DNA of 64,000 bases. It comes from Burkholderiales bacterium. GTDB lineage: Bacteria > Pseudomonadota > Gammaproteobacteria > Burkholderiales > Ga0077523. Position numbers and translations under genes: made by a program. The DNA lies in the NCBI GenBank assembly GCA_038324085.1, contig JBBQHP010000003.1, positions 64,720-128,719 of the forward strand, in the 5' to 3' direction. The notes under the pieces were generated by a model. The model saw nothing but the letters and a program-made list of their open reading frames with translations, made no database searches and was not told the DNA's origin. Shown one piece after another: positions 44,256 to 59,623 of the stretch (position 1 is the first letter of the stretch; the number at the start of each line of letters is the position of its first letter).

Positions 44256-44265
44256 CGTGGCGTCC

Positions 44266-46170
<1,905 letters not shown>

Positions 46171-46286
46171 TTACACATCGGCCACTGGAGCCCTACGTCG
46201 CCCAACGTGCGTTCAACTTGCATCCGACAGGTCAAGGAGCCGACAATGCGTACGCAGAAAGTGTCAGCAGCAGGCAAACCAGGTCA

Positions 46287-46304
46287 TGTAGGGCAAATCA
46301 CACA
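46287..46304 (+). promoter_or_regulatory. isolated TGT-N12-ACA upstream of ppaA
   Basis: TGTAGGGCAAATCACACA lies 56 nt before ATG 46360, in a stretch with non-coding-like GC3 (about 49%). Could be a chance match. Confidence 0.3.
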
Positions 46305-46359
46305 CAACGAATGCCCACGGGGTACCAACCCCCGTTCTCGCTTGGGAGGGAGAGAACTG

Positions 46360-47244
46360 ATGGATAGGTTGAATAGGCTGACCGGAAACTGGACCGGCTT
46401 GGGTAGCGCGGGCGGCGTACGCCTGGAGCGCCGCGACAAGGCGGATCCACGCGACGGTTCCGCGGTCCATGTGGAACAGTTGTTCCGGACAATCGAGACG
46501 GAAATCATCCCGCGCCTGATGCTCGCGCACACGCCGCAGCGGGCGTGTCCGAGCGTGCCCGAAGTCGATGGCACCGGCCCCGACGTTGAAACCGTCCATG
46601 AATTCACCAGGCTGGTCGTGGAGCAGGACGGCGAGGTCGCGGCGGCCTACGTCGAGGCCTTGCGGGCGCAAGGAACGCCGCTGGAGGCGATCTACCTCAA
46701 GCTCATCACACCGGCGGCGCACCGGCTCGGCGAATTATGGGAAGCGGACCTGTGCGATTTCACCGAGGTGACCGTGGGCTTGTGGCGGCTCCAGCAAGTG
46801 CTTCGCGGGCTGAGTGCCGCCTTTCGCGACGAGCAACCCCAGGCGTCTACCGGCCGGCGGATATTGCTGGTCCCCTCCCCGGGCGAGCAGCACATCCTCG
46901 GCCTCATCATCGTCGGCGACTACTTCCGGCGCGAAGGGTGGGATGTGTGGGGCGAGCCTCCGGCCACCAGCGGCGACCTGCCCGATATCGTGCGGCACGA
47001 GTGGTTCGACGTCGTCGGCCTGTCCGTTGGCTGCGAGGTCCATGTCGACAAGCTCGCAGCGGAAATTCGCGCGATCCGCCATGCGTCCTGCAACCAAGAC
47101 GTTGCAATCATGGTCGGAGGGCCACTGTTCATCAAATATCCCGAGTTGGTGGCGCAGGTGGGGGCAGACGCCTCCGCGCGCGATGGACGCGAAGCAGTGC
47201 AGCAGGCGGCCAGCCTGACTGAACCGGGGGCCAGACGCATTTGA
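46360..47244 (+). CDS. ppaA: B12-binding-domain regulator PpaA/AerR
   Basis: ATG 46360 (GGGAGGGAG SD) within ORF 46207..47244. The B12-binding pattern is PGEQHILGLIIVGDYFRREGWDV...VVGLSV...IMVGGPLF. It sits immediately upstream of ppsR. Confidence 0.8.
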   Translation: MDRLNRLTGNWTGLGSAGGVRLERRDKADPRDGSAVHVEQLFRTIETEIIPRLMLAHTPQRACPSVPEVDGTGPDVETVHEFTRLVVEQDGEVAAAYVEALRAQGTPLEAIYLKLITPAAHRLGELWEADLCDFTEVTVGLWRLQQVLRGLSAAFRDEQPQASTGRRILLVPSPGEQHILGLIIVGDYFRREGWDVWGEPPATSGDLPDIVRHEWFDVVGLSVGCEVHVDKLAAEIRAIRHASCNQDVAIMVGGPLFIKYPELVAQVGADASARDGREAVQQAASLTEPGARRI

Positions 47245-48725
47245 AAACGCGGCAGGGCGGCGATGCCGAATTGGTACGTCGGGATGCGGATCTGGGTGCG
47301 TTTCCGGTGAAACATTTCGAAGCGCCAAAGAAATCACTGGGCGGGCTCGACCCCGAGGCTGCCGCGACGTTGATTGCAGCGACCACGGACGTTGCGCTGG
47401 TGCTCGATCGCCAGGGTGTGATCAGGGATCTCTCGTTCGGCAGTGCCGAGATGTCCGCCGAGGGCTACGGCAGCTGGATCGGCCAGTCGTGGGTAGACAC
47501 CGTCACGCCGGACAGCCGGTCGAAAGTCGAGGCGCTCCTGCGCGAGGCCGCGGCGAACACCGCGACGCGCTGGCGCCATGTCAACCATCCTTCCGCGAAA
47601 GGCGCGGACGTTCCGGTGCTGTACTCGGCCATCCAGGTGGGCAAGGACGGCGGCATGGTGGTCGTGGGGCGCGACCTGCGCGCCGTTGCCGCCCTGCAGC
47701 AGCGGCTCGTATCCGCGCAGCAGTCGATGGAGCGCGACTATTGGCGACTGCGCCATGTGGAGACCCGCTATCGGCTGCTGTTCGAGATGGCGTCCGAGGC
47801 CGTGCTGATCGTCGATGCCTCGTCGATGCGCGTCGTCGAAGCCAATCCCGCCGCCGGTGAGTTGCTGGGCGAGACGGTCAAGCGCATCGTCGGTCGCGCC
47901 TTTCCCGACGGGTTCGACGCCGAGAGCACCCAGGCCGTGAAAGCCGTGCTGACGGCCGTCAGATCGGCCGGTCGCAGCGACGAACTGCGAGTCCGACTCG
48001 CATCGGGCAAAGGCGAATTCCTGCTCGCGGCCTCGTTGTTCCGCCAGGAGAACAATTCGTTCTTCCTGGTGCGGCTGGCACGCCAGCAGACCGGGGCGAG
48101 CACGGCGAGCGTCCCGAAGCGCAAGTCCATGCTGCTCGAACTGGTCGAGAACGCGCCCGATGGCTTCGTCGTGACCGATCCTTCCGGGCGGATCCTGACC
48201 GCCAACCGGGCGTTCATCGATCTCGCGCAGATCGCCACGGAAGATCTCGTGCGAGGCGAAACGCTCGAGCGCTGGCTGGGTCGACCGGGGGTCGACCTGA
48301 AGGTGTTGATCTCGAACCTGCGGCAGCACGGTTCGGTACAACTGTATGCGACGACCCTGCTGGGTGAGTTCGGTACCGCGACCGACGTGGAGATCTCCGC
48401 GGTTTCGGTGCCCCAGGCCGAAGAGCCCTGCCTTGGGTTCACCATTCGCAACACCGGCCGCCGGCTGATGGCGGACCCGCGCGCGGGTCGGGAGCTGCCC
48501 CGGTCCGTGGAGCAACTCACCGAGCTGGTCGGCCGTGTGTCGCTGAAGGACCTCGTGCGCGAGTCGACCGATCTCATCGAGCGTCTGTGCATCGAAGCCG
48601 CGCTGGAGCTGACCGGCGACAACCGCGCTTCGGCTGCGGAAATGCTCGGCTTGAGTCGCCAGAGCCTGTACGTCAAGCTGCGGCGATACGGGCTGGGCGA
48701 TCTCGCTTCGGAAGAAGGTCGCTGA
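47241..48725 (+). CDS. ppsR: photosynthesis gene repressor PpsR/CrtJ
   Basis: 494-aa ORF (TTG start overlapping the ppaA TGA). It has repeated PAS segments, the Q-linker LVSAQQSMERDYWRLRHVETRYRLLFE and the C-terminal Fis-type HTH CIEAALELTGDNRASAAEMLGLSRQSLYVKLRRYGL. Confidence 0.9.
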   Translation: MKTRQGGDAELVRRDADLGAFPVKHFEAPKKSLGGLDPEAAATLIAATTDVALVLDRQGVIRDLSFGSAEMSAEGYGSWIGQSWVDTVTPDSRSKVEALLREAAANTATRWRHVNHPSAKGADVPVLYSAIQVGKDGGMVVVGRDLRAVAALQQRLVSAQQSMERDYWRLRHVETRYRLLFEMASEAVLIVDASSMRVVEANPAAGELLGETVKRIVGRAFPDGFDAESTQAVKAVLTAVRSAGRSDELRVRLASGKGEFLLAASLFRQENNSFFLVRLARQQTGASTASVPKRKSMLLELVENAPDGFVVTDPSGRILTANRAFIDLAQIATEDLVRGETLERWLGRPGVDLKVLISNLRQHGSVQLYATTLLGEFGTATDVEISAVSVPQAEEPCLGFTIRNTGRRLMADPRAGRELPRSVEQLTELVGRVSLKDLVRESTDLIERLCIEAALELTGDNRASAAEMLGLSRQSLYVKLRRYGLGDLASEEGR

Positions 48726-48798
48726 AGCCGGAATTGGCGCGCCGCTGTCGCTGCCGGCGGCGTGCGCGCAGAACGTCGATCGGCGTGTGTCCTGAATG

Positions 48799-48842
48799 TG
48801 TAACTTCTGATTGACATTTAATACTGTCATCTGTAGTTTTCA
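48799..48842 (+). promoter_or_regulatory. bchG promoter with PpsR/CrtJ-type operator
   Basis: Perfect TGT-N12-ACA at 48799..48816 contains -35 TTGACA (48811..48816). 17 nt separate it from -10 TAGTTT (48834..48839). A one-mismatch TGT-N12-TCA at 48825..48842 lies over the -10. Confidence 0.6.
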
Positions 48843-48846
48843 GTGC

Positions 48847-49764
48847 ATGGCACGCACTGCGATGACAGTAGCAATGGGGGCTCGTCCGGCGCCGGCGGCG
48901 GTGTTGGAATTGCTGAAGCCGATCACGTGGTTTCCACCGATGTGGGCGTTCGGCTGCGGGGTGGTGTCCGCCGGCGTGCCCCTTGCGGGGCGATGGTCTC
49001 TGATCGTGCTCGGCATCCTGCTCGCTGGGCCGCTCGTGTGTGCAACCAGTCAGGCGGTCAACGACTGGTTCGACCGCCATGTCGATGCCATCAACGAGCC
49101 CGGGCGACCGATCCCGTCCGGGCGGATCCCCGGTCTGTGGGGCCTCTGGATCGCCATTGCATGGACTGCGCTGTCGCTCGCCGTCGCGCTCGCATTGGGT
49201 CGATGGGTGTTCGGTGCCGCCGTGCTCGGTCTCGCACTCGCCTGGGCGTACAGCGCACCGCCGCTGCGGCTCAAACAGAACGGCTGGTGGGGAAACGCGG
49301 CGTGCGGGCTGTGCTACGAAGGGCTCGCCTGGATCACGGGCGCCGCAGTGATGGCGGGGGGGGCCATGCCGGATGGGCGCATCCTGCTGCTCGCCGCGCT
49401 CTACAGCATCGGCGCTCACGGCATCATGACCTTGAACGATTTCAAGGCGATCGAGGGCGATCGGCGCATGGGCATCGGCTCGTTGCCGGTGCGACTCGGC
49501 ATCATGAATGCCGGACGCGCCGCTTGTCTTTTCATGGCGGTGCCGCAATTCGTCGTGGTGGCACTGCTGTGGGCGTGGGATCGACCCTGGCACGCCGCCG
49601 GTGTCGGCGTGCTGCTTGCGGTACAACTCGGGCTGATGGCGCGCTTTCTGCCGCGACCGAGCGAGCGTGCGCTCTGGTACAGCGCGATCGGCATCAATTT
49701 CTTCGTGCTCGGCATGCTGGTCAGCGCGTTCGCCGTGCGTGGGATCGGGCCGGTGGCCCAATGA
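48847..49764 (+). CDS. bchG: bacteriochlorophyll synthase
   Basis: ATG 48847 within ORF 48811..49764. UbiA-family motif NDWFDRHVDAINEPGRPIPSGRI, plus LELLKPITWFPPMWAF. Confidence 0.95.
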   Translation: MARTAMTVAMGARPAPAAVLELLKPITWFPPMWAFGCGVVSAGVPLAGRWSLIVLGILLAGPLVCATSQAVNDWFDRHVDAINEPGRPIPSGRIPGLWGLWIAIAWTALSLAVALALGRWVFGAAVLGLALAWAYSAPPLRLKQNGWWGNAACGLCYEGLAWITGAAVMAGGAMPDGRILLLAALYSIGAHGIMTLNDFKAIEGDRRMGIGSLPVRLGIMNAGRAACLFMAVPQFVVVALLWAWDRPWHAAGVGVLLAVQLGLMARFLPRPSERALWYSAIGINFFVLGMLVSAFAVRGIGPVAQ

Positions 49765-49786
49765 TCGGCCGCCCCGCGGCTCCGGG

Positions 49787-51136
49787 ATGAGCGCCTTGCC
49801 GCTGGGATGGATCGGCATCGTCCGGCTCGGCCTGGTACAGGCCGCGCTGGGCGCCGTCGTCGTGCTCACGACCTCGACGCTCAACCGGGTCATGGTCGTC
49901 GAACTGGCGCTGCCGGCGATCGTGCCGGGAGTGCTCGTCGCGCTGCATTACCTGATCCAGGTGATGCGGCCGCGTCTCGGTCACGGCTCGGACGCCGGGG
50001 GCCGGCGCACGCCGTGGATCGTCGGCGGCATGGCCGTGCTGGCGCTCGGCGGGATCGCGGCCGCCGTTGCGACCGCGTGGATGGCCACCAATCCGGTGGC
50101 GGGATTGATCCTGGCGGTGGTGGCCTTCGCGGCGATCGGGGTCGGGGTCGGGGCGGCGGGCACCGCGCTGCTCGTGCTGCTCGCCAAGCGCGTCGCGGAA
50201 CCGCGTCGCGCGGCTGCGGCAACGATCGTGTGGATGATGATGATCGTGGGTTTCGCAATCACCGCGCTGCTTGCCGGACACCTGCTCGACCCGTTCTCGC
50301 CGGCCCGGTTGGTGGCGGTCACGACGGCCGTCTCCACAGTCGCCTTCGTGCTCGCGCTGATCGCCGTCCGGGGCGTCGAGGGCGGCGCCGCACTCGCGGA
50401 TGCACGGATCGCGGCGCGCGCCAAGCTGCCGTTCCGGGACGCATTGCGGGAGGTCTGGGCCGAACCTCAGGCGCGACGCTTCACGATCTTCGTGTTCGTC
50501 TCGATGCTCGCCTACAGCGCGCAGGATCTGATTCTCGAGCCCTTTGCCGGGACCGTGTTCGGGTTGACGCCGGGCGAATCGACCCGCCTCTCGGGCGTGC
50601 AGCATGGTGGCGTGCTGGTCGGAATGGTGCTGGTGGCGCTCGCGGGCAGCGCCGGCGCCGGCCACCGCTTCGGCTCGCTGCGGGCCTGGACGATCGGTGG
50701 GTGTCTCGCATCCGCCGTGGCCTTGCTCGGGCTGGTCGCCGCCGCAATTGCGGGCCCCGCATGGCCATTGCGCGAATCGGTGTTTGCACTCGGCATCGCG
50801 AACGGGGCATTCGCCGTGGCTGCGATCGGATCGATGATGGGGCTGGCTGGTGCCGGGCGCGAAGCGCGCGAAGGCGTCCGGATGGGATTGTGGGGTGCGG
50901 CCCAGGCTGTCGCCTTCGGTCTCGGCGATCTCGTGGGCACGGCCGCGAGCGACATCGCGCGCCAACTGCTCGGGTCTCCGGCGAGCGCGTACGCAGTGGT
51001 GTTCTGTGCCGAGGCTATTGTTTTCGTTTACGCCGCCGTGCTCGCGGTGCGCGTCGGGCAGGTCGGCGCGCAGACCGCGCGCGCGGCCCCGGTGCCACAG
51101 GGTGGCGGTGTTCTTGCGCAGGGCGGGAGAGGATGA
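49787..51136 (+). CDS. PucC-family (BCD) MFS protein between bchG and bchP
   Basis: ATG 49787 within ORF 49667..51136. Contains IVRLGLVQAALGAVVVLTTSTLNRVMVVELALPAIVPGVLVALHYLIQVMRPRLGHGSD. It is a paralogue of lhaA. Confidence 0.85.
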   Translation: MSALPLGWIGIVRLGLVQAALGAVVVLTTSTLNRVMVVELALPAIVPGVLVALHYLIQVMRPRLGHGSDAGGRRTPWIVGGMAVLALGGIAAAVATAWMATNPVAGLILAVVAFAAIGVGVGAAGTALLVLLAKRVAEPRRAAAATIVWMMMIVGFAITALLAGHLLDPFSPARLVAVTTAVSTVAFVLALIAVRGVEGGAALADARIAARAKLPFRDALREVWAEPQARRFTIFVFVSMLAYSAQDLILEPFAGTVFGLTPGESTRLSGVQHGGVLVGMVLVALAGSAGAGHRFGSLRAWTIGGCLASAVALLGLVAAAIAGPAWPLRESVFALGIANGAFAVAAIGSMMGLAGAGREAREGVRMGLWGAAQAVAFGLGDLVGTAASDIARQLLGSPASAYAVVFCAEAIVFVYAAVLAVRVGQVGAQTARAAPVPQGGGVLAQGGRG

Positions 51137-52335
51137 TGATCATGGCCGAGACAGAATGTTTTGATGCAGTGGTAGTGGGCGGGGGGCCGGCGGGCGCGAC
51201 GGCTGCGGCCGATCTCGCGCGCATGGGTCACTCGGTGTTGCTGCTCGATCGGGAGGGTCGCGTCAAGCCGTGCGGCGGCGCAATTCCACCGGCCCTGATC
51301 GACCAGTTCGAGATTCCCGATGCGCTGCTGGTGGCGCACGTCACGTCCGCGCGCATGATTTCACCCAAGGGGGCGGAAGTGGATATGCCGATCGATGGCG
51401 GCTTCGTCGGCATGGTCGATCGCGAAGTCTTCGACGAATGGCTCCGCCAGCGCGCTGCGGCCGCCGGTGCCGCGCGGCGGACGGGTATTTTCGAGCGCAT
51501 CACCCGCGAATCCGATGGAACGACGAGCGTCCACTTTCGCAGCAAGGCCGAGCGCGGGAATGCCGCGACCGTGCGCGCGCGGGTGGTGATCGGCGCCGAC
51601 GGCGCCACCTCGATGGTCGCCCGGCAGGAGATTGCCGGGGCCGATCGCATGCGCTACGTCTATGCCTACCATGAGATCGTGCGCTCGCCCGCGGACGGCC
51701 AAGGCAAGTTCGATGGGCAGCGGTGCGACGTGATCTATCGCGGCGAGTTGTCGCCCGATTTCTACGGCTGGGTGTTTCCGCATGGCGCTACGACCAGCGT
51801 AGGCACGGGCACGGCGAATCGCGGCTTCTCGATCCGCAATGCCGCAACCGCGCTGCGCCGTGCCAGCGGACTGGAAACAGCGGAGACCCTCCGGCGCGAA
51901 GGCGCTCCGATCCCGATGAAACCGCTCCCCCGGTGGGACAATGCGCGCGATGTCGTGCTCGCCGGGGATGCCGCCGGCGTCGTTGCACCTGCGTCGGGCG
52001 AAGGCATCTTCTATGCGATGACCGGGGGCAGACTCGCCGCGGAGGCTGCCGGCCAGTTCCTTCGAACCGGCGATGCTCGCGCGCTCGCGACAGCGCGCAA
52101 GCGTTTCATGAAGGCCCACGGCAGGGTGTTCTGGGTGCTCGGCATCATGCAGCGCTTCTGGTACGCGAGCGACAAGCGGCGTGAGCGTTTCGTGAGCATC
52201 TGCAGGGATCCGGACGTCCAGATGCTTACCTGGCAGGCCTACATGCACAAGCGGCTGGTGCGCGCGAAGCCCATGGCGCACATGCGCATCTTCTTCAAGG
52301 ACCTCGCCCACCTCGTGGGCATCGCATCGCCCTGA
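51133..52335 (+). CDS. bchP: geranylgeranyl diphosphate/bacteriochlorophyll reductase
   Basis: ATG 51133 (ATGA overlap with the upstream stop; alternative ATG 51142) within ORF 49807..52335. FAD fold FDAVVVGGGPAGATAA and LLLDREGRVKPCGGAIP. Confidence 0.95.
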   Translation: MMIMAETECFDAVVVGGGPAGATAAADLARMGHSVLLLDREGRVKPCGGAIPPALIDQFEIPDALLVAHVTSARMISPKGAEVDMPIDGGFVGMVDREVFDEWLRQRAAAAGAARRTGIFERITRESDGTTSVHFRSKAERGNAATVRARVVIGADGATSMVARQEIAGADRMRYVYAYHEIVRSPADGQGKFDGQRCDVIYRGELSPDFYGWVFPHGATTSVGTGTANRGFSIRNAATALRRASGLETAETLRREGAPIPMKPLPRWDNARDVVLAGDAAGVVAPASGEGIFYAMTGGRLAAEAAGQFLRTGDARALATARKRFMKAHGRVFWVLGIMQRFWYASDKRRERFVSICRDPDVQMLTWQAYMHKRLVRAKPMAHMRIFFKDLAHLVGIASP

Positions 52336-52392
52336 CGATACCACCCGCGCCGTCTCCGGCGCGGGCGTGCGATTCGCCATACCATCCGCGCG

Positions 52393-53679
52393 GTGCCCAT
52401 ACTTCCGCCCGACCACCCGGAACGACACCTCCTCTCCGACGAGGTGCATGCCCGCCCGCCCGAGGCCGTCGAGACGCCGGCCCTGGCGACCTATGCCGCG
52501 ATCCTCGTGGATCACGACGAGCGTGAACGCGAGCGTGCCCACGTCGCCGCGCTGTGCGAGCGCTTCGACGTCGTGCCGCCCACGAAGAGCGCCACGCATT
52601 TTGCCGCGACCCTGGGCGCGCTGCGCTTCAAGTGGGAACGCCACGGCGAGTTCTCCGGCTATACGTTATGCGTCGCCGGCGAGAGCTCGCGGCCGTTCGG
52701 TGAACCTGCGGCCGGGCATCTGCCCCCGGGTTGGCTGGCCGGAATCCCCGGGCGCACCATCGCTGCCGCGCACGCCAAGCTCGTCGCCAGCGACGGCGGC
52801 CCGCCCGATGCGACACTGCTCGCGGAGCATTTCGAGGGCAACGTCGTGGTGGGCGCCGCCATCGGTGACGGCGCCGGCGTCGCATACACCGATTTCCGTA
52901 CGCACGACGACGGCTGCACCCGGTTTCTCGTGTTCGACCACAACTTCACGCCGCGCCAGGCCGGCCGCATGTTGCAGCGCCTGTTCGAGATCGAAGCCTA
53001 TCGGATGCTGGCCCTGCTCGCACTGCCGATCGCGCGCCGCCAGACTCCCCGCATCCTCGAGATCGAGCGATCGCTCGCGATGCTCACGGACAATATTGCG
53101 GGGGAAAGCGGCGATGACGAGCAGCTGTTGGGCGAGCTGACCAAGCTCGCAGCGGAGATCGAGAGCGGGCTCGCGGCGAGCCAGTTCCGTTTCGGTGCGG
53201 GCCGCGCCTACCACGACCTGGTGAGCACGCGCATCTCGGAACTGCGTGAACTTCGCATTCCCGGAATGCAGACCATCGAGGAGTTCATGGCGCGGCGCCT
53301 GAGTCCCGCCATGGCGACCTGCGCGTCCGGCTCGCAGCGGCTGCGTGACCTGTCCGAGCGCGTCGCCCAGGCGAGCAACCTGCTGTCCACCAGAGTCGAC
53401 ATCGCGCGCGAAAAGCAGAATCAGTCGCTGCTTGCATCGATGGAGCGGCGGGCGCGCCTGCAGTTGCGGCTCCAGCAAACCGTCGAAGGTCTGTCGGTCG
53501 CGGCGATCACCTACTACGTGGTCGGCCTGGTCGCGTATGGAGCGAAGGCACTGTACACGGCGGGGTTGCCGGTGATACCCGATGTCGCAGTTGGCATTGC
53601 GATCCCCGTTGTCGTGATTTTCGTTGCATTGGCATTGCGCCGCGCGCGGCGCCGGATCGGAGAACGCAACAATGGCTGA
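52393..53679 (+). CDS. DUF3422-like membrane-anchored protein
   Basis: 428-aa ORF (GTG start). It has a soluble N-domain starting PPDHPERHLLSDEVHARP, a coiled-coil-like middle and two C-terminal TM helices followed by RRARRRI. The family name is from memory and unverified. Confidence 0.55.
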   Translation: MPILPPDHPERHLLSDEVHARPPEAVETPALATYAAILVDHDERERERAHVAALCERFDVVPPTKSATHFAATLGALRFKWERHGEFSGYTLCVAGESSRPFGEPAAGHLPPGWLAGIPGRTIAAAHAKLVASDGGPPDATLLAEHFEGNVVVGAAIGDGAGVAYTDFRTHDDGCTRFLVFDHNFTPRQAGRMLQRLFEIEAYRMLALLALPIARRQTPRILEIERSLAMLTDNIAGESGDDEQLLGELTKLAAEIESGLAASQFRFGAGRAYHDLVSTRISELRELRIPGMQTIEEFMARRLSPAMATCASGSQRLRDLSERVAQASNLLSTRVDIAREKQNQSLLASMERRARLQLRLQQTVEGLSVAAITYYVVGLVAYGAKALYTAGLPVIPDVAVGIAIPVVVIFVALALRRARRRIGERNNG

Positions 53680-53693
53680 CCGGACGGCACGCG

Positions 53694-53972
53694 ATGGGTG
53701 AGTTGTTCGTTTCCGGGCGTATCGTGGACCTGATCCTCGGGTTCACGGCGCTGGAGGGTATTGCGCTCGTGACATACCACCGCATGACGCGGCGCGGCCT
53801 CGATAGCGCCGAAGTGCTGAGCATGTTGTTGCCGGGAGTCTGCCTGTTGCTCGCATTGCGTTTCAGCATGACCGGCGCGTGGTGGGGTTGGATCGCAACG
53901 AGCCTGTTCGCATCGCTCGTGACCCATCTGGCCGACCTGGGACGCCGACACGCGCGCACGGGGGTGCAATAG
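53694..53972 (+). CDS. small hydrophobic protein (about 3 TM), unknown function
   Basis: 92-aa ORF starting 15 nt after the previous stop. GC3 is about 80% by hand count. No family recognised. Confidence 0.45.
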   Translation: MGELFVSGRIVDLILGFTALEGIALVTYHRMTRRGLDSAEVLSMLLPGVCLLLALRFSMTGAWWGWIATSLFASLVTHLADLGRRHARTGVQ

Positions 53973-54061
53973 TTCCCGGAGAAACCTCGCAAACGCTAGA
54001 ATATCGGACAAGAGTCGCCGGATCGTCGGGCGGACACAGCAGTACGCGCCATGGAACCGAC

Positions 54062-55162
54062 ATGATTGGAATGAATATCCCGCAGCCCGACATCACGCTC
54101 CATCTGGACATGGATGGCGTGATCCAGGATGCAACGCTGTCGCGCGCCCTGCCGCAGGAGGATCTCGATTGCTGGATCGGTCGCCCGTGGTTCGAGACGG
54201 TGGCCGAGGACGTGACCGACAAGGTGAAGCGCCTGGTGGAAGATTCGCGCTGGATGCGTGTGTCCGGCTTCCGTCAGATCACGCAGCGTTTCCCGAGCGG
54301 GCGCGAGGCCCTGATCGAGTACGCGACCATCCGACTGGGCGGGCGGGGTGGCCTGATCGCGATCGGGCGGAATCTCCAGGCGGTCGCGGAACTGCAGACC
54401 CGGCTGGTCGAAGCGCAGCAATCGATGGAGCGCGAATACTGGAAGCTGCGCGAAGTCGAGACCCGCTATCGTCACCTGTTCGAGAATTCCGACGAGGCGG
54501 TGATCCTGGTCAGGGCGGCGAATCTGCGCATCCTCGAGGCAAATCCGGCCGCGACGCGCGCGCTGGGCGGCGCGGGCCCGGAAGGCGGCGCTGCCCGGGT
54601 GGTGCTACACGATGTGATCCCCGAAGACCGCGAGGCCTTCCAGGCGATGCTCGAACGCGCTCGTCAGCAGGGCAAGTCGACCGGGATTCTCGTGCGACTG
54701 GGCTCCGACCAGCAACCGTGGCTCGTGCGCGCATCGCTGCTGGCTTCCGAGACCGGCCAGCTGTTCCTGCTTCAGCTCGCGCGCGCGGGTGTCGCCGGTC
54801 CGGTCCCGAATCGCACCGCCCAGGTATCGATCGAGGATCTCGTGGAACGCAGTCCGGATCCGTTCGTGGCGATCGACCGGGAAGGGGTCATCATGCGATG
54901 CAACCTTGCGTTTCGCGCACTGGTGGGCATCGATGTCGCGGGATCCGCTGCCGGCGAGCACATCGAGCGCTGGTTCGCCTGCCCAGTCAGCGATTTCGCC
55001 ACGCTTTTGACCACTGTCCAGGCTCGCGGGATGGTGCGCAACATTCCGATCTCGCTTCGCGGAGATGGCGGCGCCGAGAAGAAATTCGAGATATCTGCCG
55101 TGGGCAATTCGGATACCGAGCCGCAATACTACGGCGTATTGCTTCGGGACCGAGGCGAGTGA
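54062..55162 (+). CDS. PpsR-like PAS-domain protein lacking the C-terminal HTH
   Basis: ATG 54062 within ORF 53879..55162. It is collinear by eye with PpsR, including LVEAQQSMEREYWKLREVETRYRHLFE. It ends right after the last PAS segment, 31 nt before bphP. Confidence 0.75.
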   Translation: MIGMNIPQPDITLHLDMDGVIQDATLSRALPQEDLDCWIGRPWFETVAEDVTDKVKRLVEDSRWMRVSGFRQITQRFPSGREALIEYATIRLGGRGGLIAIGRNLQAVAELQTRLVEAQQSMEREYWKLREVETRYRHLFENSDEAVILVRAANLRILEANPAATRALGGAGPEGGAARVVLHDVIPEDREAFQAMLERARQQGKSTGILVRLGSDQQPWLVRASLLASETGQLFLLQLARAGVAGPVPNRTAQVSIEDLVERSPDPFVAIDREGVIMRCNLAFRALVGIDVAGSAAGEHIERWFACPVSDFATLLTTVQARGMVRNIPISLRGDGGAEKKFEISAVGNSDTEPQYYGVLLRDRGE

Positions 55163-55193
55163 ACCCCGGGAGAACCCTGGTTTGTCCTCCCCC

Positions 55194-57350
55194 ATGTTCC
55201 CGGCGACGCTGTTCGGGCAGGCCGACCTTTCCAACTGCGAACGGGAGCAGATCCATCTGGCGGGGTCAATCCAGCCCCATGGCGCGCTGCTCGTGGTTCG
55301 CGAAGCGGACTTCGTCGTTGTCCAGTCGAGCGCGAACGCGCAGGAATTCCTCGCGCACCCCGACGCTCTCGTCGGGCGCTCGCTCGAGGAACTCGGTGGA
55401 GACCTCCTAGCACGCCTCCGCCCCCTCCTGAGTGGACCGCTCGGGGACATTCCCGTCGCCGTACGCTGCCGGGTCGGGAGCCCGGCAGTCGATTTCGACT
55501 GCCTGATGCACCGGGCGCCCGGGGGCGAACTGGTCATCGAACTGGAGCGCACCGGCGCCCCGATCGATCAGTCCGGACAATTGCAGGAAGCGTTGCAGAC
55601 GATTCTCGCCGCATCGTCGCTGCGCGAGCTGTGCGACGAAGCGGCGAGGGTGTTCAAGAACATCACAGGCTACGACCGCGTGATGATCTATCGCTTCGAC
55701 GAGGAAGGCCACGGCGAGGTCTTTTCCGAGCGCCGGCAGCCAGGTCTGGAACCCTACCTGGGCAATCACTATCCTGCCTCGGACATCCCGCAGATCGCGC
55801 GCCGCTTGTACGAGCGCAATCGGGTCCGCGTTCTGGTGGATGTGGAGGATACCTCCGTCCCGCTGGTGCCGCGCCAGGTCACCGGCCGCGAACTGGACAT
55901 GTCGCTGTGCTTCCTGCGCAGCATGTCGCCGGTGCACACCCAGTACCTGAAGAACATGGGTGTGCGGGCGACCATGGTGATGTCGCTGATGGTCGGCGGC
56001 AGGCTCTGGGGCCTCGTCGCATGCCATCACTATGTCCCGCGGATGGTGCACTACGAGATCCGGGCGGCGTGCGACCTGCTGGCAGAAGCGGTGGCCACGC
56101 GCATCGCGGCCCTCGAGAGCTTCGTGCAGGCGCACGTCGAGTTGCAGGTGCGTCGGCTGGAACAGCGCATGGTCGAGGCCATAGCTCGCGACGGCGACTG
56201 GAAAGGCGCCCTGTTCGACGATCCGCGATCCCTGCTCCAACCGCTCGACGCGAGCGGAGCGGCGCTGCTGTTCGAGGGGCAGGTGCTCACGGTCGGCGAG
56301 GTGCCGGGCACCCAGGAGTTGCGCGAAATAGGACGCTGGTTCGATCAGAAACCGCGCACCGCGGTGCTCGCCACCGCATCGCTCGGCATCGACGCACCCG
56401 AGTTCAGCCTGCTGGCATCGGTGGCAAGCGGCATGATCGCGGCGCCGGTGTCGAATGCCCAGGGGGAATACCTGCTGTGGTTTCGTCCGGAGCGCGTGCG
56501 CACCGTGACCTGGGGCGGCAATCCGTTCAAGCCATTCGTCGTCGGCAACGACCCGTCGGAACTGTCGCCGCGCCGCTCGTTCGCGCAGTGGCACCAGGTC
56601 GTCGAAGGCACGTGCGATCCGTGGACCCTGGCCGATCTGACGGCAGCGCGCCTGATCGGCGAGTCGGTCGCCGACATCGTGCTCCAGTTTCGATCCGTGC
56701 GGATGTTGATCGCGCGCGACCAGTTGCTGCAGGTGAGCAGGCAGGTGGAAATCTCGGAGCAGCCCATCGTCATTGCCGATGCCGACGGCCGCATCCTGCT
56801 CACCAACGTTTCCTTCGACCGGATGCTGGGCGCGGACCGTTCGAGACTCGAGTCACTGCACGATCTTGATTCCTGTCTCGCCTACGATGCCAGTGCGGGT
56901 CAACCGTTGCGCGATCTGCTGGAGCATCGCCGGCCGTGGCGGGGCGAGGTCACGCTCGCCGACGGCACCGACGGGATGAAGTCGCTGCTGGTCCGTGCCG
57001 ATCCCGTGTTCGCCTCGGCGAATCGCTCGCTTGGATTCGTGATCGGCTTCGTCGACCTGACCGAGCGCAAGGCGGCCGAGGCCGCCCGCCGGCGATTCCA
57101 GGACGATATCGTCAAGCAGTACCGGCCCGTGAACGTCCGCCTGGATTCCGATTCCGACGTGGTCTACCGCAATCTGCTGTCGTCGATCGTGGGCAATGCG
57201 CAACTGGCGGCGATGGAGATCACCGATGGCGTGGACGTGGCCAAGATGCCGGACATGCTCGAGAGCGTACAGGCTTCGGTTCATCGCACGGCCGAACTGC
57301 TCGGCCAACTCATCCGGCGCTCGACGGGTGTGGCGGGCCGCGACGAGTAG
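55194..57350 (+). CDS. bphP: bacteriophytochrome with PAS plus helical (non-kinase) output
   Basis: ATG 55194 within ORF 55065..57350. Biliverdin Cys in LSNCEREQIHLAGSIQPHGALL. GAF motifs RVMIYRFDEEGHGEV, YPASDIPQIARRLY and SPVHTQYLKNMG. A PHY region is present. I saw no HisKA or HATPase motifs. Confidence 0.9.
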   Translation: MFPATLFGQADLSNCEREQIHLAGSIQPHGALLVVREADFVVVQSSANAQEFLAHPDALVGRSLEELGGDLLARLRPLLSGPLGDIPVAVRCRVGSPAVDFDCLMHRAPGGELVIELERTGAPIDQSGQLQEALQTILAASSLRELCDEAARVFKNITGYDRVMIYRFDEEGHGEVFSERRQPGLEPYLGNHYPASDIPQIARRLYERNRVRVLVDVEDTSVPLVPRQVTGRELDMSLCFLRSMSPVHTQYLKNMGVRATMVMSLMVGGRLWGLVACHHYVPRMVHYEIRAACDLLAEAVATRIAALESFVQAHVELQVRRLEQRMVEAIARDGDWKGALFDDPRSLLQPLDASGAALLFEGQVLTVGEVPGTQELREIGRWFDQKPRTAVLATASLGIDAPEFSLLASVASGMIAAPVSNAQGEYLLWFRPERVRTVTWGGNPFKPFVVGNDPSELSPRRSFAQWHQVVEGTCDPWTLADLTAARLIGESVADIVLQFRSVRMLIARDQLLQVSRQVEISEQPIVIADADGRILLTNVSFDRMLGADRSRLESLHDLDSCLAYDASAGQPLRDLLEHRRPWRGEVTLADGTDGMKSLLVRADPVFASANRSLGFVIGFVDLTERKAAEAARRRFQDDIVKQYRPVNVRLDSDSDVVYRNLLSSIVGNAQLAAMEITDGVDVAKMPDMLESVQASVHRTAELLGQLIRRSTGVAGRDE

Positions 57351-57371
57351 CCGGGCCGACGACCCTCGGTT

Positions 57372-58091
57372 TCAGCTCCGGGCGGCTTCCCGTACTGCGA
57401 TCGAGAGCTCGATGTTGCAGCGAAAGGCGGCTTCGGCCTCCGCGATCAAGGCCGCCTCGTCCGCGACCGCGCCGGCGGCCCGCTCCAGCGCCCGGCGGTA
57501 ACCGTCCTTGAACTCCGGGAGGTTCGCGACGCCCGCGAATTCGTAGAACCGGAGCTGATGCGGCGCCAAGGCGAGCGATCGGGTCAGCAATCGTCGCAGG
57601 ACCTGTCCGCCGCTCAGATCACCGAGATAGCGGACGTATGCATGCGCGAGCAGGCGCGTACCGTCACCTTGCGCGGCGGCAGCAATCAGCGCGGCGTAGC
57701 GCGTGGCGGAGGCGAGAACGCCCAGGTCGTCCTGCCACCGCGAACCGTGCAGGGCAGTCAGATCGGACTCCAGCGCGGCGGCACGGAACACGGTCGGTAG
57801 CGCGATCCCGCGCATCCCGGGCGAATGGCGATGGTGCTCGAGCCCGAGTTCGAGCTCGCGATAGGCCGGTAGCAGATTGCGTAGCAGCATCACATAGCCG
57901 GCCCGGTCGGCCCGCCCCTGGAGCAGGTCGCAAACGATTCCCGATCGCTCCGCCTCGCCGTGTAGCGCCCGGGTGCCCTCGCGGAGTGCATCCATGATTC
58001 CCGGCCTGGGCTCCGCCCGGTCCGAATCGCGTGGCGTGTCGGTGATCATCGCCGGGGATCCGGTGTCGCCCTGCGCGGTGCTGTCATCCAT
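57372..58091 (-). CDS. bphO: heme oxygenase (biliverdin-producing)
   Basis: C-terminal part of ORF 57372..58742. Contains MDALREGTRALHGEAERS (proximal His context) and AHAYVRYLGDLSGGQVL. The start is uncertain: ATG 58091, 58049 or 57995. 58091 lies 9 nt after the upstream stop. Confidence 0.8.
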   Translation of the reverse strand: MDDSTAQGDTGSPAMITDTPRDSDRAEPRPGIMDALREGTRALHGEAERSGIVCDLLQGRADRAGYVMLLRNLLPAYRELELGLEHHRHSPGMRGIALPTVFRAAALESDLTALHGSRWQDDLGVLASATRYAALIAAAAQGDGTRLLAHAYVRYLGDLSGGQVLRRLLTRSLALAPHQLRFYEFAGVANLPEFKDGYRRALERAAGAVADEAALIAEAEAAFRCNIELSIAVREAARS

Positions 58092-58099
58092 GCCGGCCG

Positions 58100-59623
58100 C
58101 TATCCGCGCACCACCGGAAAAGTCACCGCGATCGCCCACGCGAAGGCGACCGCATTCGCGATCGCACCGGGCAGCGGATGGTTCGTGCGGCGCCACGCCC
58201 AGTGGGCAATGAGACCGTAGATCACGAAGAACGCGAGTATCGCGGGCACGATGATGACGAGAAAGAAGAGCTTGCCCGGATTGAGTGCAATCGCGATTGC
58301 GAGCGAGAGCAGGAACAGGATCTTGGTGAGTGCATAGGCACCGCGCGGGGCTTCCAGTCCCCGGGTGAGGCGCGCATCGGCGAGGAAATAGGGGATGGTG
58401 CCGACCAGCATGGCGGCGAATAGTGGCAGGCGGGTGGCGCCGGGCAGGAACGCGCTCACGTAACGGTCGAGCGGCAGCGCGATCGCGAGGACGCTGAACG
58501 CCGTGACCGCGAGAACCGCCAGTGCGAGCGCATCGCTGGAGACGCGTTCGATCGGCGCGTACGGCCGGGTCCGTCGTCTCGACGTCAGCCACAAGCCCGC
58601 GAACGTCAACAGACCATACAGCCCGAAGTGACAGACCAGGTAGTCTCCGAGCAACAGCCGCAGGAAATGGGTCGGGAGCTGCCAGAGAATGAGCGGTGTC
58701 AGCACGGCCGGTGCGATCGCGACCGGGAGCAGTTCGCGCCAAGTGAATCCGTCGCCGAACGGCAGCCGCGCCACCACCGGCAAGCGTTGCGACAGCGGAT
58801 GCGCAAGCGCCACGATGCCGAGGAACAGCAGGGCAAGCCAGCGCCCGCGCGTGCCGACGAAGCCTTCGGATTGCCTCGAGAACACCTGGTTCATCCAGGA
58901 AATCACCTCATTGATGCTGTCGCGGCTGTACAGCACGCCGATATGCTCGACCCCGGCCGCGAACGCGAACCGTCGCGCCGTTCCGTTGGCGATGCTGCCG
59001 TACGTCACGCCGGGTTCCGCCACGCCGCCCGCCGCCATGCCTGCGATGCGGCGGCCTTCGTCGCTGAACATCGACGGTTCCAGCGCGCCGATGATCACGA
59101 GCAGATTGCGCGGGCGCTCCGCGGTCACGTCGTGCGAATAGAGCGACACGCCGACGGTCGCACTCACCTCGGGGTGGTCGATGGCATAGCGCACGACCGT
59201 CTCGGACGCCATCGAATGTCCGAGCAGCGCGAGGCGCCCGTCGGTGCCGGGGAGGGACCGCGCGTGCTCCACCACCGCATCCAGGGCGGCGAGCAGTGCC
59301 TGGCCGGCGAGCGCGTAGTCTGCCAGGCCCCCGGCAAGTGGCGTGGGATTGCGCCCGTGTCCGGGAAAATCGAAGGTGACGGCGACGTAGCCGTTGCGTG
59401 CGAGGGAGATCGCGAACGGCTGCATCAGTTGCTGCGAACCGGCGAAACCGTGGGCGATCACGATCACGGGCGCTCGTTCGGCCGACGCGGGCCGGAACAC
59501 GGTGACCGGGATCGTACCGACGCGATCGCGCACGATCTCGATCCCCGTGGTGGCGCTCTCCAGGCGCCAAAGCGCCAGGACGATCGCAAACACGGCGGCG
59601 AGTGCTACGTACGGAAATCGCAT
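58100..59623 (-). CDS. membrane-anchored alpha/beta-hydrolase fused to a polytopic membrane domain
   Basis: 507-aa ORF. It has an N-terminal anchor, then VIVIAHGFAGS...FDFPGHGRN...LLGHSMASE (nucleophile elbow), then about 7 predicted TM helices. Confidence 0.6.
   Translation of the reverse strand: MRFPYVALAAVFAIVLALWRLESATTGIEIVRDRVGTIPVTVFRPASAERAPVIVIAHGFAGSQQLMQPFAISLARNGYVAVTFDFPGHGRNPTPLAGGLADYALAGQALLAALDAVVEHARSLPGTDGRLALLGHSMASETVVRYAIDHPEVSATVGVSLYSHDVTAERPRNLLVIIGALEPSMFSDEGRRIAGMAAGGVAEPGVTYGSIANGTARRFAFAAGVEHIGVLYSRDSINEVISWMNQVFSRQSEGFVGTRGRWLALLFLGIVALAHPLSQRLPVVARLPFGDGFTWRELLPVAIAPAVLTPLILWQLPTHFLRLLLGDYLVCHFGLYGLLTFAGLWLTSRRRTRPYAPIERVSSDALALAVLAVTAFSVLAIALPLDRYVSAFLPGATRLPLFAAMLVGTIPYFLADARLTRGLEAPRGAYALTKILFLLSLAIAIALNPGKLFFLVIIVPAILAFFVIYGLIAHWAWRRTNHPLPGAIANAVAFAWAIAVTFPVVRG

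What the first reader, a model, noticed from the sequence alone, without database searches (positions are those of the whole stretch)
54062..55162. PpsR paralogue without a DNA-binding domain, directly upstream of a bacteriophytochrome
The ORF is collinear by eye with the real PpsR at 47241..48725. For example, LVEAQQSMEREYWKLREVETRYRHLFENSDEAVILVRAANLRILEANPAATRALG matches LVSAQQSMERDYWRLRHVETRYRLLFEMASEAVLIVDASSMRVVEANPAAGELLG. Likewise FEISAVGNSDTEPQYYGVLLRDRG matches VEISAVSVPQAEEPCLGFTIRNTG. It stops right after the last PAS segment. The roughly 75 C-terminal residues of PpsR that carry the Fis-type HTH (AALELTGDNRASAAEMLGLSRQSLYVKLRRYGL) have no counterpart. Only 31 nt separate its TGA from the bphP ATG (55194), so there is no room for a frameshifted HTH remnant. 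Established knowledge: in Rhodopseudomonas palustris and Bradyrhizobium, a full-length PpsR paralogue next to a bacteriophytochrome is controlled by direct protein contact. Inference: here the phytochrome partner cannot bind DNA. It may act as a light-controlled decoy or anti-repressor that hetero-oligomerises with the DNA-binding PpsR.
Basis: partly seen in the sequence, partly recalled or inferred. Interest (0 to 1): 0.7.

Follow-up and report, generated by a model that had tools for sequence, protein, structure and literature searches.

The report
Phytochrome partner PpsR without DNA-binding domain
At the end of a photosynthesis gene cluster, the regulator gene normally paired with a far-red light sensor has lost its DNA-binding domain yet is conserved under selection, so light must control these genes by protein-protein contacts not yet described.

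Summary
ORF 54062..55162 (366 aa) is a PpsR/CrtJ paralogue that covers N-PAS, Q-linker, PAS1 and PAS2. It stops 3-4 residues after the last PAS2 strand. It has no Fis-type HTH, no HTH remnant in any frame, and no spare residues for a cryptic DNA-binding domain.

The stop is not an error or a recent pseudogene. Fourteen orthologues from uncultured Burkholderiales end at the same alignment column, form one clade and keep the same gene order (aerR-ppsR-bchG-lhaA-bchP-orf-shortPpsR-bphP, then hmuO). Whole-gene dN/dS is 0.10-0.29. N-PAS, Q-linker and PAS1 are tightly constrained (0.05-0.17). PAS2 is relaxed (0.40).

The closest full-length relatives (56-60% identity) also sit directly upstream of a bphP. 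The protein therefore derives from the phytochrome-linked PpsR2 type. The adjacent BphP is an RpBphP1 orthologue, and its HOS output helices are its most constrained part (dN/dS 0.06).

Other HTH-less PpsR-like genes sit next to BphP1-type genes in several distant lineages.

Best explanation (inferred, not shown): it remains the light-state-specific partner of BphP and acts on the single DNA-binding PpsR by protein contact. I found no paper describing this. I rate it a new variant of the BphP1-PpsR2 switch.

The parts
54062..55162 (+). Short PpsR (sPpsR), 366 aa: N-PAS (about 1-103), Q-linker helix (about 104-142), PAS1 (about 143-243), variable linker (244-255), PAS2 (256-363). No HTH.
   Evidence: ORF, BLASTP, Pfam, TIGR02040; matches the RsPpsR deltaHTH construct 4HH2, chain residues 28-381 of 384. 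AF2 model, pLDDT 79.8, last strand at 356-363. Foldseek top hit is 4HH2 over 363 columns; dN/dS.
55163..55193 (+). 31-nt spacer between the sPpsR stop and the bphP start. It contains a weak 5-bp hairpin (55166..55180). The genes are probably co-transcribed.
   Evidence: In orthologous loci the spacer is -4 (an overlap of stop and start codons), 19 or 26 nt.
55194..57350 (+). BphP1-type bacteriophytochrome, 718 aa: PAS2-GAF-PHY, then PAS9, then a two-helix HOS output. No histidine-kinase domain.
   Evidence: Pfam; 849 bits to RpBphP1 4GW9 over residues 6-628. HOS motif conserved; dN/dS is 0.13 for the photosensory core, 0.25 for PAS9 and 0.058 for HOS.
57372..58100 (-). Heme oxygenase (hmuO/bphO), convergent with bphP. 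It supplies the biliverdin chromophore. The true start lies inside the longer mechanical ORF 57372..58742.
   Evidence: PF01126, E 2e-49. The same position is occupied in L001, L002 and L004.
53694..53972 (+). Conserved small hydrophobic ORF (92 aa, no Pfam family) immediately upstream of sPpsR. It is part of the cassette.
   Evidence: 54-71% identical to the ORFs at the same position in L001, L002 and L004, and 53% identical to the ORF upstream of a full-length bphP-linked ppsR in L010.
47241..48725 (+). Full-length AerR-linked PpsR (494 aa) with a Fis-type HTH. It is the only HTH-bearing PpsR in the window and the presumed DNA-binding target or effector of the system.
   Evidence: HTH_8 at 446-483. 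TIGR02040, 565.8 bits over profile positions 1-442.; dN/dS of 0.02-0.06 in the N, Q, PAS2 and HTH segments (PAS1 0.15, linker 0.43).
46207..47244 (+). AerR/PpaA-type B12-binding co-regulator upstream of ppsR. The true start is probably further downstream, because orthologues are 294-296 aa.
   Evidence: B12-binding and B12-binding_2..
48799..48816 (+). TGT-N12-ACA palindrome (PpsR-type operator) upstream of bchG. Further copies lie at 46287 (aerR), 21949 (upstream of bchC) and 19619 (crtE start). None lies upstream of sPpsR, bphP or hmuO.
   Evidence: 10 matches against 5.1 expected by chance.

Best explanation
sPpsR is a functional derivative of the phytochrome-linked PpsR2-type repressor that cannot bind DNA. 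It keeps the N-PAS/Q-linker/PAS1 module. In Rps. palustris PpsR2, a Q-PAS1 fragment within that module is enough for light-dependent binding to BphP1. In Rba. sphaeroides PpsR, the same module forms the dimer interface.

sPpsR is probably co-expressed with a BphP1 orthologue whose HOS output helices are intact.

Proposed mechanism:
1. Far-red and red light switch BphP between Pfr and Pr.
2. One state binds sPpsR.
3. The pool of free sPpsR versus BphP-bound sPpsR then modulates the only DNA-binding PpsR of the cluster (47241..48725). It does so through PAS/Q-linker contacts, either as mixed oligomers or by blocking tetramer formation.
4. This changes occupancy of the TGT-N12-ACA operators at the bchC, crtE, aerR and bchG promoters.

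Shown here: the architecture, the loss of the HTH, a single origin for the clade, purifying selection concentrated on N-Q-PAS1 and on the BphP HOS domain, and conserved adjacency to bphP (operon organisation is inferred from -4 to 31 nt spacers).

Inferred only: BphP-sPpsR binding, the sPpsR-PpsR contact, and the sign of the light response.
For: Architecture and HTH loss.

Single conserved truncation point and a monophyletic clade of 14 proteins.

Conserved gene order, with -4 to 31 nt between sPpsR and bphP.

Purifying selection. Whole-gene dN/dS is 0.10-0.29. By domain it is N 0.11, Q 0.05, PAS1 0.17 and PAS2 0.40.

Origin. The closest full-length relatives are also directly upstream of bphP and hmuO. 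Bradyrhizobium has the same order ppsR1-bchG-MFS-bchP-cycA-ppsR2-BrBphP (PMC10569730).

The phytochrome. BphP scores 849 bits against RpBphP1. Its HOS domain has dN/dS 0.058, the lowest of the protein. The HOS motif is shared with BphPs that pair with full-length PpsR.

Published support.
- The Q-PAS1 fragment of RpPpsR2 is sufficient for the BphP1 interaction (review PMC8707292).
- RsPpsR without its HTH still forms dimers and tetramers, with Kd about 0.9 uM (PMC3949515).

PAS2 dimer-contact residues D266, S345 and R362 (equivalent to Rs D279, S358, R375) are invariant in the clade.

A full-length PpsR coexists in every photosynthesis-cluster locus that carries a short form: the window, L001, L002, L004, L016 and L020.
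Against: No interaction was or could be tested here.

The Q-linker and PAS domains of sPpsR are no closer to the local PpsR than those of full-length PpsR2-type proteins (72% vs 73% in Q, 34% vs 30% in PAS1, 38% vs 47% in PAS2). Nothing therefore points to a specially evolved heteromer interface.

PAS2, which mediates tetramer contacts in RsPpsR, is the relaxed domain.

Heteromers of PpsR1 and PpsR2 have not been reported in Bradyrhizobium or Rps. palustris, to my knowledge.

One related short form (P0279; L014, L015) lies outside any visible photosynthesis cluster. Two others (L018, L019) show no full-length ppsR in the few kb available. A PpsR-independent output is therefore possible.

The SAXS model of the RpBphP1-RpPpsR2 complex places the contact between HOS and the PpsR2 HTH (PMC6899989). 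If that model is right, this protein could not bind BphP in that way.
Confidence: 0.45

Rival explanations
1. sPpsR is a titration decoy for the phytochrome rather than for PpsR. In this model BphP in its active state acts directly on the full-length PpsR through that protein's own Q-PAS1 region. sPpsR competes for the HOS output, which buffers BphP and sets a threshold or sharpens the light response.
For: Q-PAS1 alone suffices to bind BphP1. The Q-linker is 72% identical between sPpsR and the local PpsR. For Rps. palustris it has been stated that BphP interacts with either or both PpsR proteins (PMC10569730). Close coupling of the two genes (spacers of -4 to 31 nt) would suit a partner made in fixed proportion to BphP. 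PAS2 relaxation fits a protein that only needs its Q-PAS1 face.
Against: The N-PAS domain is not part of Q-PAS1 yet is strongly constrained (dN/dS 0.11). A pure decoy would need only Q-PAS1. There is no evidence that a BphP1-type protein binds the AerR-linked PpsR type.
Confidence: 0.2
2. The BphP-sPpsR pair has a PpsR-independent output. sPpsR would be an adaptor to another partner, for example AerR or an unidentified regulator. Alternatively it could modulate BphP itself, for example its dark reversion or oligomeric state.
For: HTH-less PpsR-like, bphP and hmuO genes occur together in a locus with no photosynthesis genes nearby (L014, L015). They also occur directly beside AerR-like B12-binding genes without a visible full-length ppsR (L018, L019). 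The short-form arrangement recurs in lineages only 32-50% identical to each other.
Against: Only 8-10 kb on each side of those loci could be read, so a PpsR or a photosynthesis cluster elsewhere in those genomes is not excluded. In the window's own clade the pair is always at the end of the photosynthesis cluster, with a full-length PpsR about 5 kb upstream.
Confidence: 0.2
3. sPpsR is a decaying remnant with no function. The HTH was deleted and the remaining sequence simply has not yet degraded.
For: sPpsR evolves 2-3 times faster than the full-length PpsR and bchG in the same genomes. Its PAS2 dN/dS of 0.40 is about 7-fold higher than in the paralogue.
Against: The reading frame is intact and has the same end point in 14 orthologues that have diverged to dS of about 0.6-1.0. 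dN/dS is 0.05-0.17 over N-Q-PAS1, and even PAS2 is below 1. The partner BphP, including HOS, is under strong constraint. The same architecture recurs in distant lineages.
Confidence: 0.05
4. The stop at 55160 is a sequencing or assembly artefact, and the gene is really a full-length ppsR2.
For: None was found.
Against: Only 31 nt separate the stop from bphP, and no HTH-coding sequence exists in any frame. The same end point occurs in independent assemblies, including the complete chromosome OZ257154.1.
Confidence: 0.01

Closest known systems
PpsR2 of Rhodopseudomonas palustris and Bradyrhizobium (the repressor paired with RpBphP1 / BrBphP)
   Same: Same gene position: downstream of bchP, directly upstream of a BphP1-type phytochrome, with a heme oxygenase next to it. 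Same N-PAS/Q-linker/PAS1/PAS2 body. The closest full-length relatives, at 56-60% identity, have exactly this context. The partner BphP is an RpBphP1 orthologue.
   Different: The C-terminal linker and Fis-type HTH, about 90 residues, are completely absent. The protein therefore cannot be a DNA-binding repressor. PAS2 is under relaxed constraint. The host is an uncultured Burkholderiales bacterium, not an alphaproteobacterium.
Engineered truncations: RsPpsR deltaHTH (PDB 4HH2) and Q-PAS1 from RpPpsR2 (an optogenetic partner of BphP1)
   Same: The natural protein ends within a few residues of the 4HH2 construct boundary, and 4HH2 is its best match in both sequence and fold. The engineered forms show that the HTH is dispensable for oligomerisation and for BphP1 binding.
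   Different: The engineered forms are laboratory constructs. This is a naturally selected gene kept alongside a separate full-length PpsR.
AppA and AerR, the protein anti-repressors or co-regulators of PpsR/CrtJ
   Same: Both are photoreceptor-linked proteins that do not bind DNA and that control PpsR by direct contact. AppA binds the Q-linker and prevents tetramer formation. This is the type of mechanism proposed here.
   Different: They are unrelated in sequence and fold (BLUF/SCHIC and B12-binding domains). sPpsR is itself a PpsR paralogue, and the light sensor, BphP, is a separate polypeptide.
Dominant-negative PAS or HLH proteins of eukaryotes, such as IPAS (a HIF-3alpha isoform), Id proteins and plant microProteins. 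This comparison rests on my own knowledge and was not tested here.
   Same: Each is a paralogue or isoform that keeps the oligomerisation domains and lacks the DNA-binding or activation part. Each works by forming non-productive complexes with the full-length factor.
   Different: The comparison is an analogy only. They have no homology beyond the PAS fold, and heteromer formation by sPpsR is not demonstrated.

Membership tests
PpsR/CrtJ transcriptional regulators (NCBIfam TIGR02040) | N-PAS, Q-linker helix, PAS1 and PAS2 body, with a score above the family cutoff | tested here: met
   301.8 bits against a cutoff of 275.4, covering profile positions 4-360 of 442; the sequence and the AF2 fold match PpsR structure 4HH2 over the whole length.
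PpsR/CrtJ transcriptional regulators (NCBIfam TIGR02040) | C-terminal Fis-type helix-turn-helix (Pfam HTH_8) | tested here: not met
   no HTH_8, even at E 0.1; the protein ends 3-4 residues after PAS2; no HTH-coding remnant in any frame; no unassigned residues.
PpsR/CrtJ transcriptional regulators (NCBIfam TIGR02040) | Sequence-specific binding to TGT-N12-ACA operators and repression of bch, crt and puf genes | not testable with these tools
   Binding is expected to be impossible without the HTH. The operators are present in the window at 19619, 21949, 46287 and 48799 and are presumably served by the full-length PpsR.
BphP1-PpsR2 far-red light switch (Rps. palustris / Bradyrhizobium type) | ppsR paralogue immediately upstream of bphP, with a heme oxygenase adjacent, inside the photosynthesis gene cluster | tested here: met
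   The same order is reported in Bradyrhizobium.
BphP1-PpsR2 far-red light switch (Rps. palustris / Bradyrhizobium type) | Phytochrome with a PAS9 and two-helix HOS output instead of a histidine kinase | tested here: met
   no kinase domains; 849 bits to RpBphP1 (4GW9); the C-terminal HOS motif is conserved. HOS dN/dS 0.058.
BphP1-PpsR2 far-red light switch (Rps. palustris / Bradyrhizobium type) | The partner retains the Q-PAS1 region, which suffices for BphP1 binding | tested here: met
   Q-linker is 92% and PAS1 79% identical within the clade, with dN/dS of 0.05 and 0.17.
BphP1-PpsR2 far-red light switch (Rps. palustris / Bradyrhizobium type) | The partner is itself the DNA-binding repressor that BphP releases from DNA | tested here: not met
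   There is no DNA-binding domain. This is the point at which the system departs from the known switch.
BphP1-PpsR2 far-red light switch (Rps. palustris / Bradyrhizobium type) | Physical interaction between BphP and its partner that depends on the Pr state | not testable with these tools
   This needs purified proteins or a two-hybrid assay under 740-780 nm versus 640-680 nm light.
Dominant-negative or anti-repressor paralogue (functional class) | Keeps the oligomerisation interface, lacks the DNA-binding domain, and coexists with the full-length factor | tested here: met
   Dimer-contact residues D266, S345 and R362 are invariant.
Dominant-negative or anti-repressor paralogue (functional class) | Forms heteromers with the full-length factor and alters its DNA binding | not testable with these tools
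   No complex prediction or assay was available. There is no sign of interface convergence.

The most novel reading that the evidence does not exclude
HTH-less PpsR proteins are a recurrent and possibly convergently evolved class of PAS-only signal adaptors. They would couple BphP1-type (HOS-output) phytochromes to gene regulation without binding DNA themselves. In phototrophic Burkholderiales they would act as light-gated dominant-negative subunits of the single PpsR repressor. That could invert the sign of far-red control relative to Rps. palustris: light-activated BphP sequesters the poison subunit, and PpsR repression is restored in the light, which would suit aerobic phototrophs. The natural pairing would also show that the HOS output recognises the Q-PAS1 face and not the HTH, which would settle the conflict between the SAXS model and the Q-PAS1 data.
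Probability: 0.3. Interest if true: 0.75.

Novelty: new variant of a known kind. Interest (0 to 1): 0.62.

Why it matters
The BphP1-PpsR2 pair is the textbook case of a phytochrome that controls transcription by binding a repressor. It is also the basis of widely used near-infrared optogenetic tools.

Here nature has removed the repressor's DNA-binding domain while keeping both genes under selection, and it has done so in several lineages. This has four consequences:
1. The output of HOS-type phytochromes does not require the partner's HTH. This bears directly on two competing structural models of the complex.
2. Light control of photosynthesis genes in these Burkholderiales must pass through an extra protein-protein step. 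That step is most likely heteromerisation with, or competition for, the single PpsR. Such a regulatory layout has not been described for PpsR/CrtJ systems.
3. Automatic annotation labels these genes 'transcriptional regulator PpsR', which is misleading.
4. The natural short partners, together with their co-evolved BphPs, offer a ready-made set of compact near-infrared interaction pairs.

Tried and rejected
Cryptic or split DNA-binding domain: rejected. Pfam and NCBIfam at E 0.1, tblastn with five HTH regions against the window and five orthologous loci, and an AF2 model with Foldseek all account for every residue as PAS domain or Q-helix.

Sequencing error or recent pseudogene: rejected, because the end point is conserved and dN/dS is well below 1.

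Autoregulation by PpsR: no TGT-N12-ACA site lies upstream of sPpsR, bphP or hmuO. The only nearby match (53384) is inside the DUF3422 coding region and is probably chance.

Promoter scan of 52-59 kb: no sigma-70-like promoter was found. The terminator-like hits are weak and not informative.

Interface convergence between sPpsR and the local PpsR: none was seen.

Literature: six full-text searches, combining PpsR, PpsR2 or PpsR-like with phytochrome, truncated, lacks, HTH, Burkholderiales or Gammaproteobacteria, found no description of a natural HTH-less PpsR. The library lacks many subscription-journal papers, so this is absence of evidence only.

Number of independent HTH losses: a neighbour-joining tree places the short lineages next to different full-length proteins. 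It has no support values and the sequences are highly diverged, so I do not commit to a number.

Not attainable. I could not obtain a species-level taxonomy of the window's organism beyond 'Betaproteobacteria / Burkholderiales MAG'.

Many other apparently short hits in the representative search are frameshifted or contig-end fragments and were discarded.
Full report
1. OBSERVATION

The ATG is at 54062 and the TGA at 55160-55162. The next gene starts at ATG 55194 after a 31-nt spacer and lies in another frame.

BLASTP against the PpsR at 47241..48725 gives 37% identity over 368 residues (E 2e-70). Short-ORF residues 10-365 align collinearly with PpsR residues 50-406. Pfam finds only PAS domains in the short ORF. 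The long paralogue has HTH_8 at residues 446-483. The NCBIfam equivalog model for PpsR/CrtJ (TIGR02040) scores 301.8 bits, above its 275.4 cutoff, but matches only profile positions 4-360 of 442.

tblastn with the C-terminal 90-95 residues of five PpsR proteins finds only the full-length PpsR's own HTH (48444..48701). There is nothing after the short ORF, elsewhere in the window, or in five orthologous loci.

An AlphaFold2 model (mean pLDDT 79.8) shows three PAS domains and a long helix at 105-142, and ends with the last PAS2 strand at 356-363. Its best Foldseek match, over 363 columns, is PDB 4HH2, 'PpsR without the HTH motif'. By sequence, the protein matches that construct's chain residues 28-381 of 384.

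The refutation criterion 'a cryptic DNA-binding domain' was tested and not met.

2. THE STOP IS GENUINE AND THE GENE IS UNDER SELECTION

A search of 5.8 billion proteins returned twelve closest hits at 65-100% identity. All are 362-386 aa and lack HTH_8. From 61% identity downward, hits are 439-480 aa and carry HTH_8.

In an alignment, all short proteins end at the same column, 3-4 residues after a conserved LLR motif. With two more from genome contigs, they form a single clade of 14 in a neighbour-joining tree. The sources name them only as Burkholderiales or Betaproteobacteria MAGs. One lies on a complete 5.29 Mb chromosome, OZ257154.1.

Gene order is conserved in every locus long enough to judge. 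bchF is divergent, then come aerR, full-length ppsR (483-494 aa with HTH_8), bchG, lhaA, bchP, a roughly 100-aa ORF, short ppsR and bphP, with a convergent heme oxygenase. The spacer between short ppsR and bphP is -4, 19, 26 or 31 nt.

Nei-Gojobori dN/dS values (pairwise range, or per-segment mean) are as follows:

| Gene or domain | dN/dS |
|---|---|
| Short gene, whole | 0.10-0.29 |
| Full-length PpsR, whole | 0.02-0.11 |
| BphP, whole | 0.08-0.18 |
| BchG and BchP | 0.07-0.15 |
| Short gene, N-PAS | 0.11 |
| Short gene, Q-linker | 0.05 |
| Short gene, PAS1 | 0.17 |
| Short gene, inter-PAS linker | 0.71 |
| Short gene, PAS2 | 0.40 |
| Full-length paralogue, PAS2 (same genomes) | 0.06 |
| Full-length paralogue, HTH region | 0.02 |

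Mean pairwise identities tell the same story. Within the short clade they are 87% (N), 92% (Q), 79% (PAS1) and 60% (PAS2). In full-length relatives PAS2 is as conserved as N and PAS1.

The HTH was therefore lost once in this clade. The gene has been kept since then, over dS of about 0.6-1.0. Constraint is concentrated on N-Q-PAS1. PAS2 is relaxed but not neutral. Its dimer-contact residues (D266, S345 and R362, equivalent to Rba. sphaeroides D279, S358 and R375) remain invariant.

3. WHAT IT DERIVES FROM

The short protein is much closer to foreign full-length PpsRs (56-60%) than to the PpsR in its own cluster (37%). Three of those relatives were examined, and each sits directly upstream of a PAS2-GAF-PHY-PAS phytochrome. 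One is also followed by a heme oxygenase (L010). Another is embedded between puh and puf genes (L011).

This is the PpsR2 position of Bradyrhizobium and Rps. palustris. The published order there is ppsR1, bchG, MFS, bchP, cycA, ppsR2, BrBphP (PMC10569730). The window therefore has the Bradyrhizobium/Rps. palustris layout, with the PpsR2 slot filled by an HTH-less derivative.

The neighbouring phytochrome is an orthologue of RpBphP1 (849 bits to 4GW9 over residues 6-628). It has no kinase domain. Its C-terminal PAS9 and two-helix HOS region carries the same motif (NAQLAAMEITDGVD...P.MLESV.ASV.RTAELL) as BphPs paired with full-length PpsRs. In the genomes with the short partner, HOS is the most constrained part of BphP: dN/dS is 0.058, against 0.13 for the photosensory core and 0.25 for PAS9. 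The output module is thus still in use.

4. NOT UNIQUE

An exhaustive HMMER search of 1.84 billion cluster representatives, followed by an HTH profile filter and context look-ups, revealed further complete HTH-less PpsR-like proteins next to a BphP1-type gene and a heme oxygenase:

| Protein(s) | Length and identity to the window protein | Context |
|---|---|---|
| P0147 clade | 377 aa, 50% | Same betaproteobacterial-type cluster order; 4-nt overlap with bphP (L016, L017) |
| P0290/P0293 | 366 aa, about 34% | Pseudomonadota MAG cluster that also has aerR, a full-length ppsR and pucBA (L020) |
| P0279 and six relatives | 364-381 aa, none with HTH_8 | One locus shows no photosynthesis genes nearby (L014, L015) |
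| P0280 | 371 aa | Beside Mg-chelatase genes (L013) |
| P0261 | 381 aa | Preceded by an AerR-like B12-binding gene (L019) |
| P0260 | 407 aa | Myxococcaceae MAG protein with a degenerate tail (L018) |

All of their BphPs have the PAS9-HOS end. In a neighbour-joining tree these lineages sit next to different full-length proteins, which suggests repeated loss. The tree has no support values, so I leave the number of losses open.

5. MECHANISM

Three published facts frame the inference:
- RpBphP1 in its Pr state binds and inactivates RpPpsR2, and the single Q-PAS1 fragment suffices for that binding (PMC8707292).
- Rba. sphaeroides PpsR without its HTH still forms dimers through N-Q-PAS1, and tetramers through PAS2-Q-linker contacts, with Kd about 0.9 uM. 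AppA regulates PpsR by binding the Q-linker (PMC3949515).
- A SAXS-based model instead places the BphP1-PpsR2 contact between HOS and the PpsR2 HTH (PMC6899989).

The natural HTH-less partners, kept together with a highly constrained HOS, favour the Q-PAS1 view.

My best explanation (confidence 0.45) has three parts. First, sPpsR is still the state-specific partner of BphP. Second, it cannot touch DNA. Third, it passes the signal on by contact with the only HTH-bearing PpsR of the cluster, either as a poison or adaptor subunit or by interfering with tetramerisation. That PpsR's operators are present at the expected promoters: 19619 at crtE, 21949 before bchC, 46287 at aerR and 48799 before bchG.

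The sign of the response cannot be deduced. If free sPpsR poisons PpsR, sequestration by light-activated BphP would restore repression. If BphP pulls mixed complexes off DNA, light would de-repress, as in Rps. palustris.

Evidence that tempers this model:
- There is no interface convergence with the local PpsR.
- The tetramerisation domain, PAS2, is relaxed.
- Some short forms lack a visible PpsR or photosynthesis cluster nearby.

Rivals: a decoy that titrates BphP away from PpsR (0.2); a PpsR-independent output or a modulator of BphP (0.2); a functionless remnant (0.05); an artefact (0.01).

6. COMPARISON WITH KNOWN SYSTEMS AND NOVELTY

sPpsR passes the body-plan part of the PpsR/CrtJ definition and fails the HTH part. 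It should not be filed as a transcriptional regulator, which is how sources annotate it.

It meets the synteny, BphP-type and Q-PAS1 criteria of the BphP1-PpsR2 switch. It fails the criterion that the partner is the repressor. Functionally it resembles the engineered deltaHTH and Q-PAS1 fragments and, by analogy, anti-repressors such as AppA.

Six full-text searches found no description of a natural HTH-less PpsR, although subscription-journal literature is only partly covered. I rate it a new variant of a known kind, with interest 0.62. It would be a real surprise to specialists in PpsR and phytochrome signalling. It also makes the HOS-target question directly testable. The mechanism, however, remains inferred.

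Noticed in passing
window 52393..53679 (+): A DUF3422 gene (Pfam E 1e-166) lies between bchP and the small-ORF/sPpsR cassette. It is present only in this window and absent at the same position in L001, L002 and L004. It looks like a lineage-specific insertion into the photosynthesis gene cluster.
   Followed up: partly
window 53694..53972 (+); L001 9631..9939; L010 1261..1614: A conserved small hydrophobic ORF (92-117 aa, no Pfam family) lies immediately upstream of the phytochrome-linked ppsR. It occurs both in loci with the short PpsR and in one with a full-length PpsR (53% identity). It appears to be an unannotated member of the ppsR2-bphP-hmuO cassette.
   Followed up: partly
window 19619, 21949, 46287, 48799: TGT-N12-ACA palindromes lie at the crtE start, upstream of bchC, in the aerR upstream region and just before bchG. 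These are the expected PpsR targets. None lies upstream of sPpsR, bphP or hmuO. The window holds 10 matches against 5.1 expected by chance.
   Followed up: partly
window 55166..55180 (+): A weak 5-bp GC hairpin followed by a T-rich stretch sits inside the 31-nt spacer between sPpsR and bphP. Orthologous loci have spacers of -4 to 26 nt, so the hairpin is probably not a conserved terminator.
   Followed up: partly
L013, L014/L015, L016/L017, L018, L019, L020: Further HTH-less PpsR-like genes (364-407 aa, 32-50% identical to the window protein) lie directly upstream of BphP1-type (PAS9-HOS) phytochromes, with a heme oxygenase adjacent. They occur in distant lineages, including a Myxococcaceae MAG and Pseudomonadota MAGs. 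One locus (L014/L015) has no photosynthesis genes nearby.
   Followed up: partly
L019 2116..2922 and L018 1148..1933: An AerR-like B12-binding gene lies next to the HTH-less PpsR-like gene, with no full-length ppsR in the stretch available. This hints that AerR-type proteins may be partners of the short forms.
   Followed up: no
window 58100..59623 (-): A 507-aa alpha/beta-hydrolase lies just beyond hmuO. Its C-terminal half looks strongly hydrophobic and probably spans the membrane (not tested). The gene is also present in L001 and absent in L002 and L004. Its Pfam hits include a very weak chlorophyllase match (E 0.08).
   Followed up: no
window 53879..54061 (+): The mechanical ORF for sPpsR extends 61 codons upstream to GTG 53879 and overlaps the small ORF. 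Some database gene calls carry similar N-terminal extensions (P0002, P0004 and P0012, at 384-386 aa). Conservation starts at ATG 54062.
   Followed up: yes
window 10690..58100: The window holds a nearly complete photosynthesis gene cluster. It runs from bchI (10690) and bchD through crt genes, bchC, pufLM (28142..29967), the large 38879..42667 ORF presumed to be bchH, and bchF-N-B. It continues through aerR, ppsR, bchG, lhaA and bchP to bphP and hmuO. Housekeeping genes flank it: pcnB and panBC on the left and an acyl-CoA synthetase on the right.
   Followed up: partly
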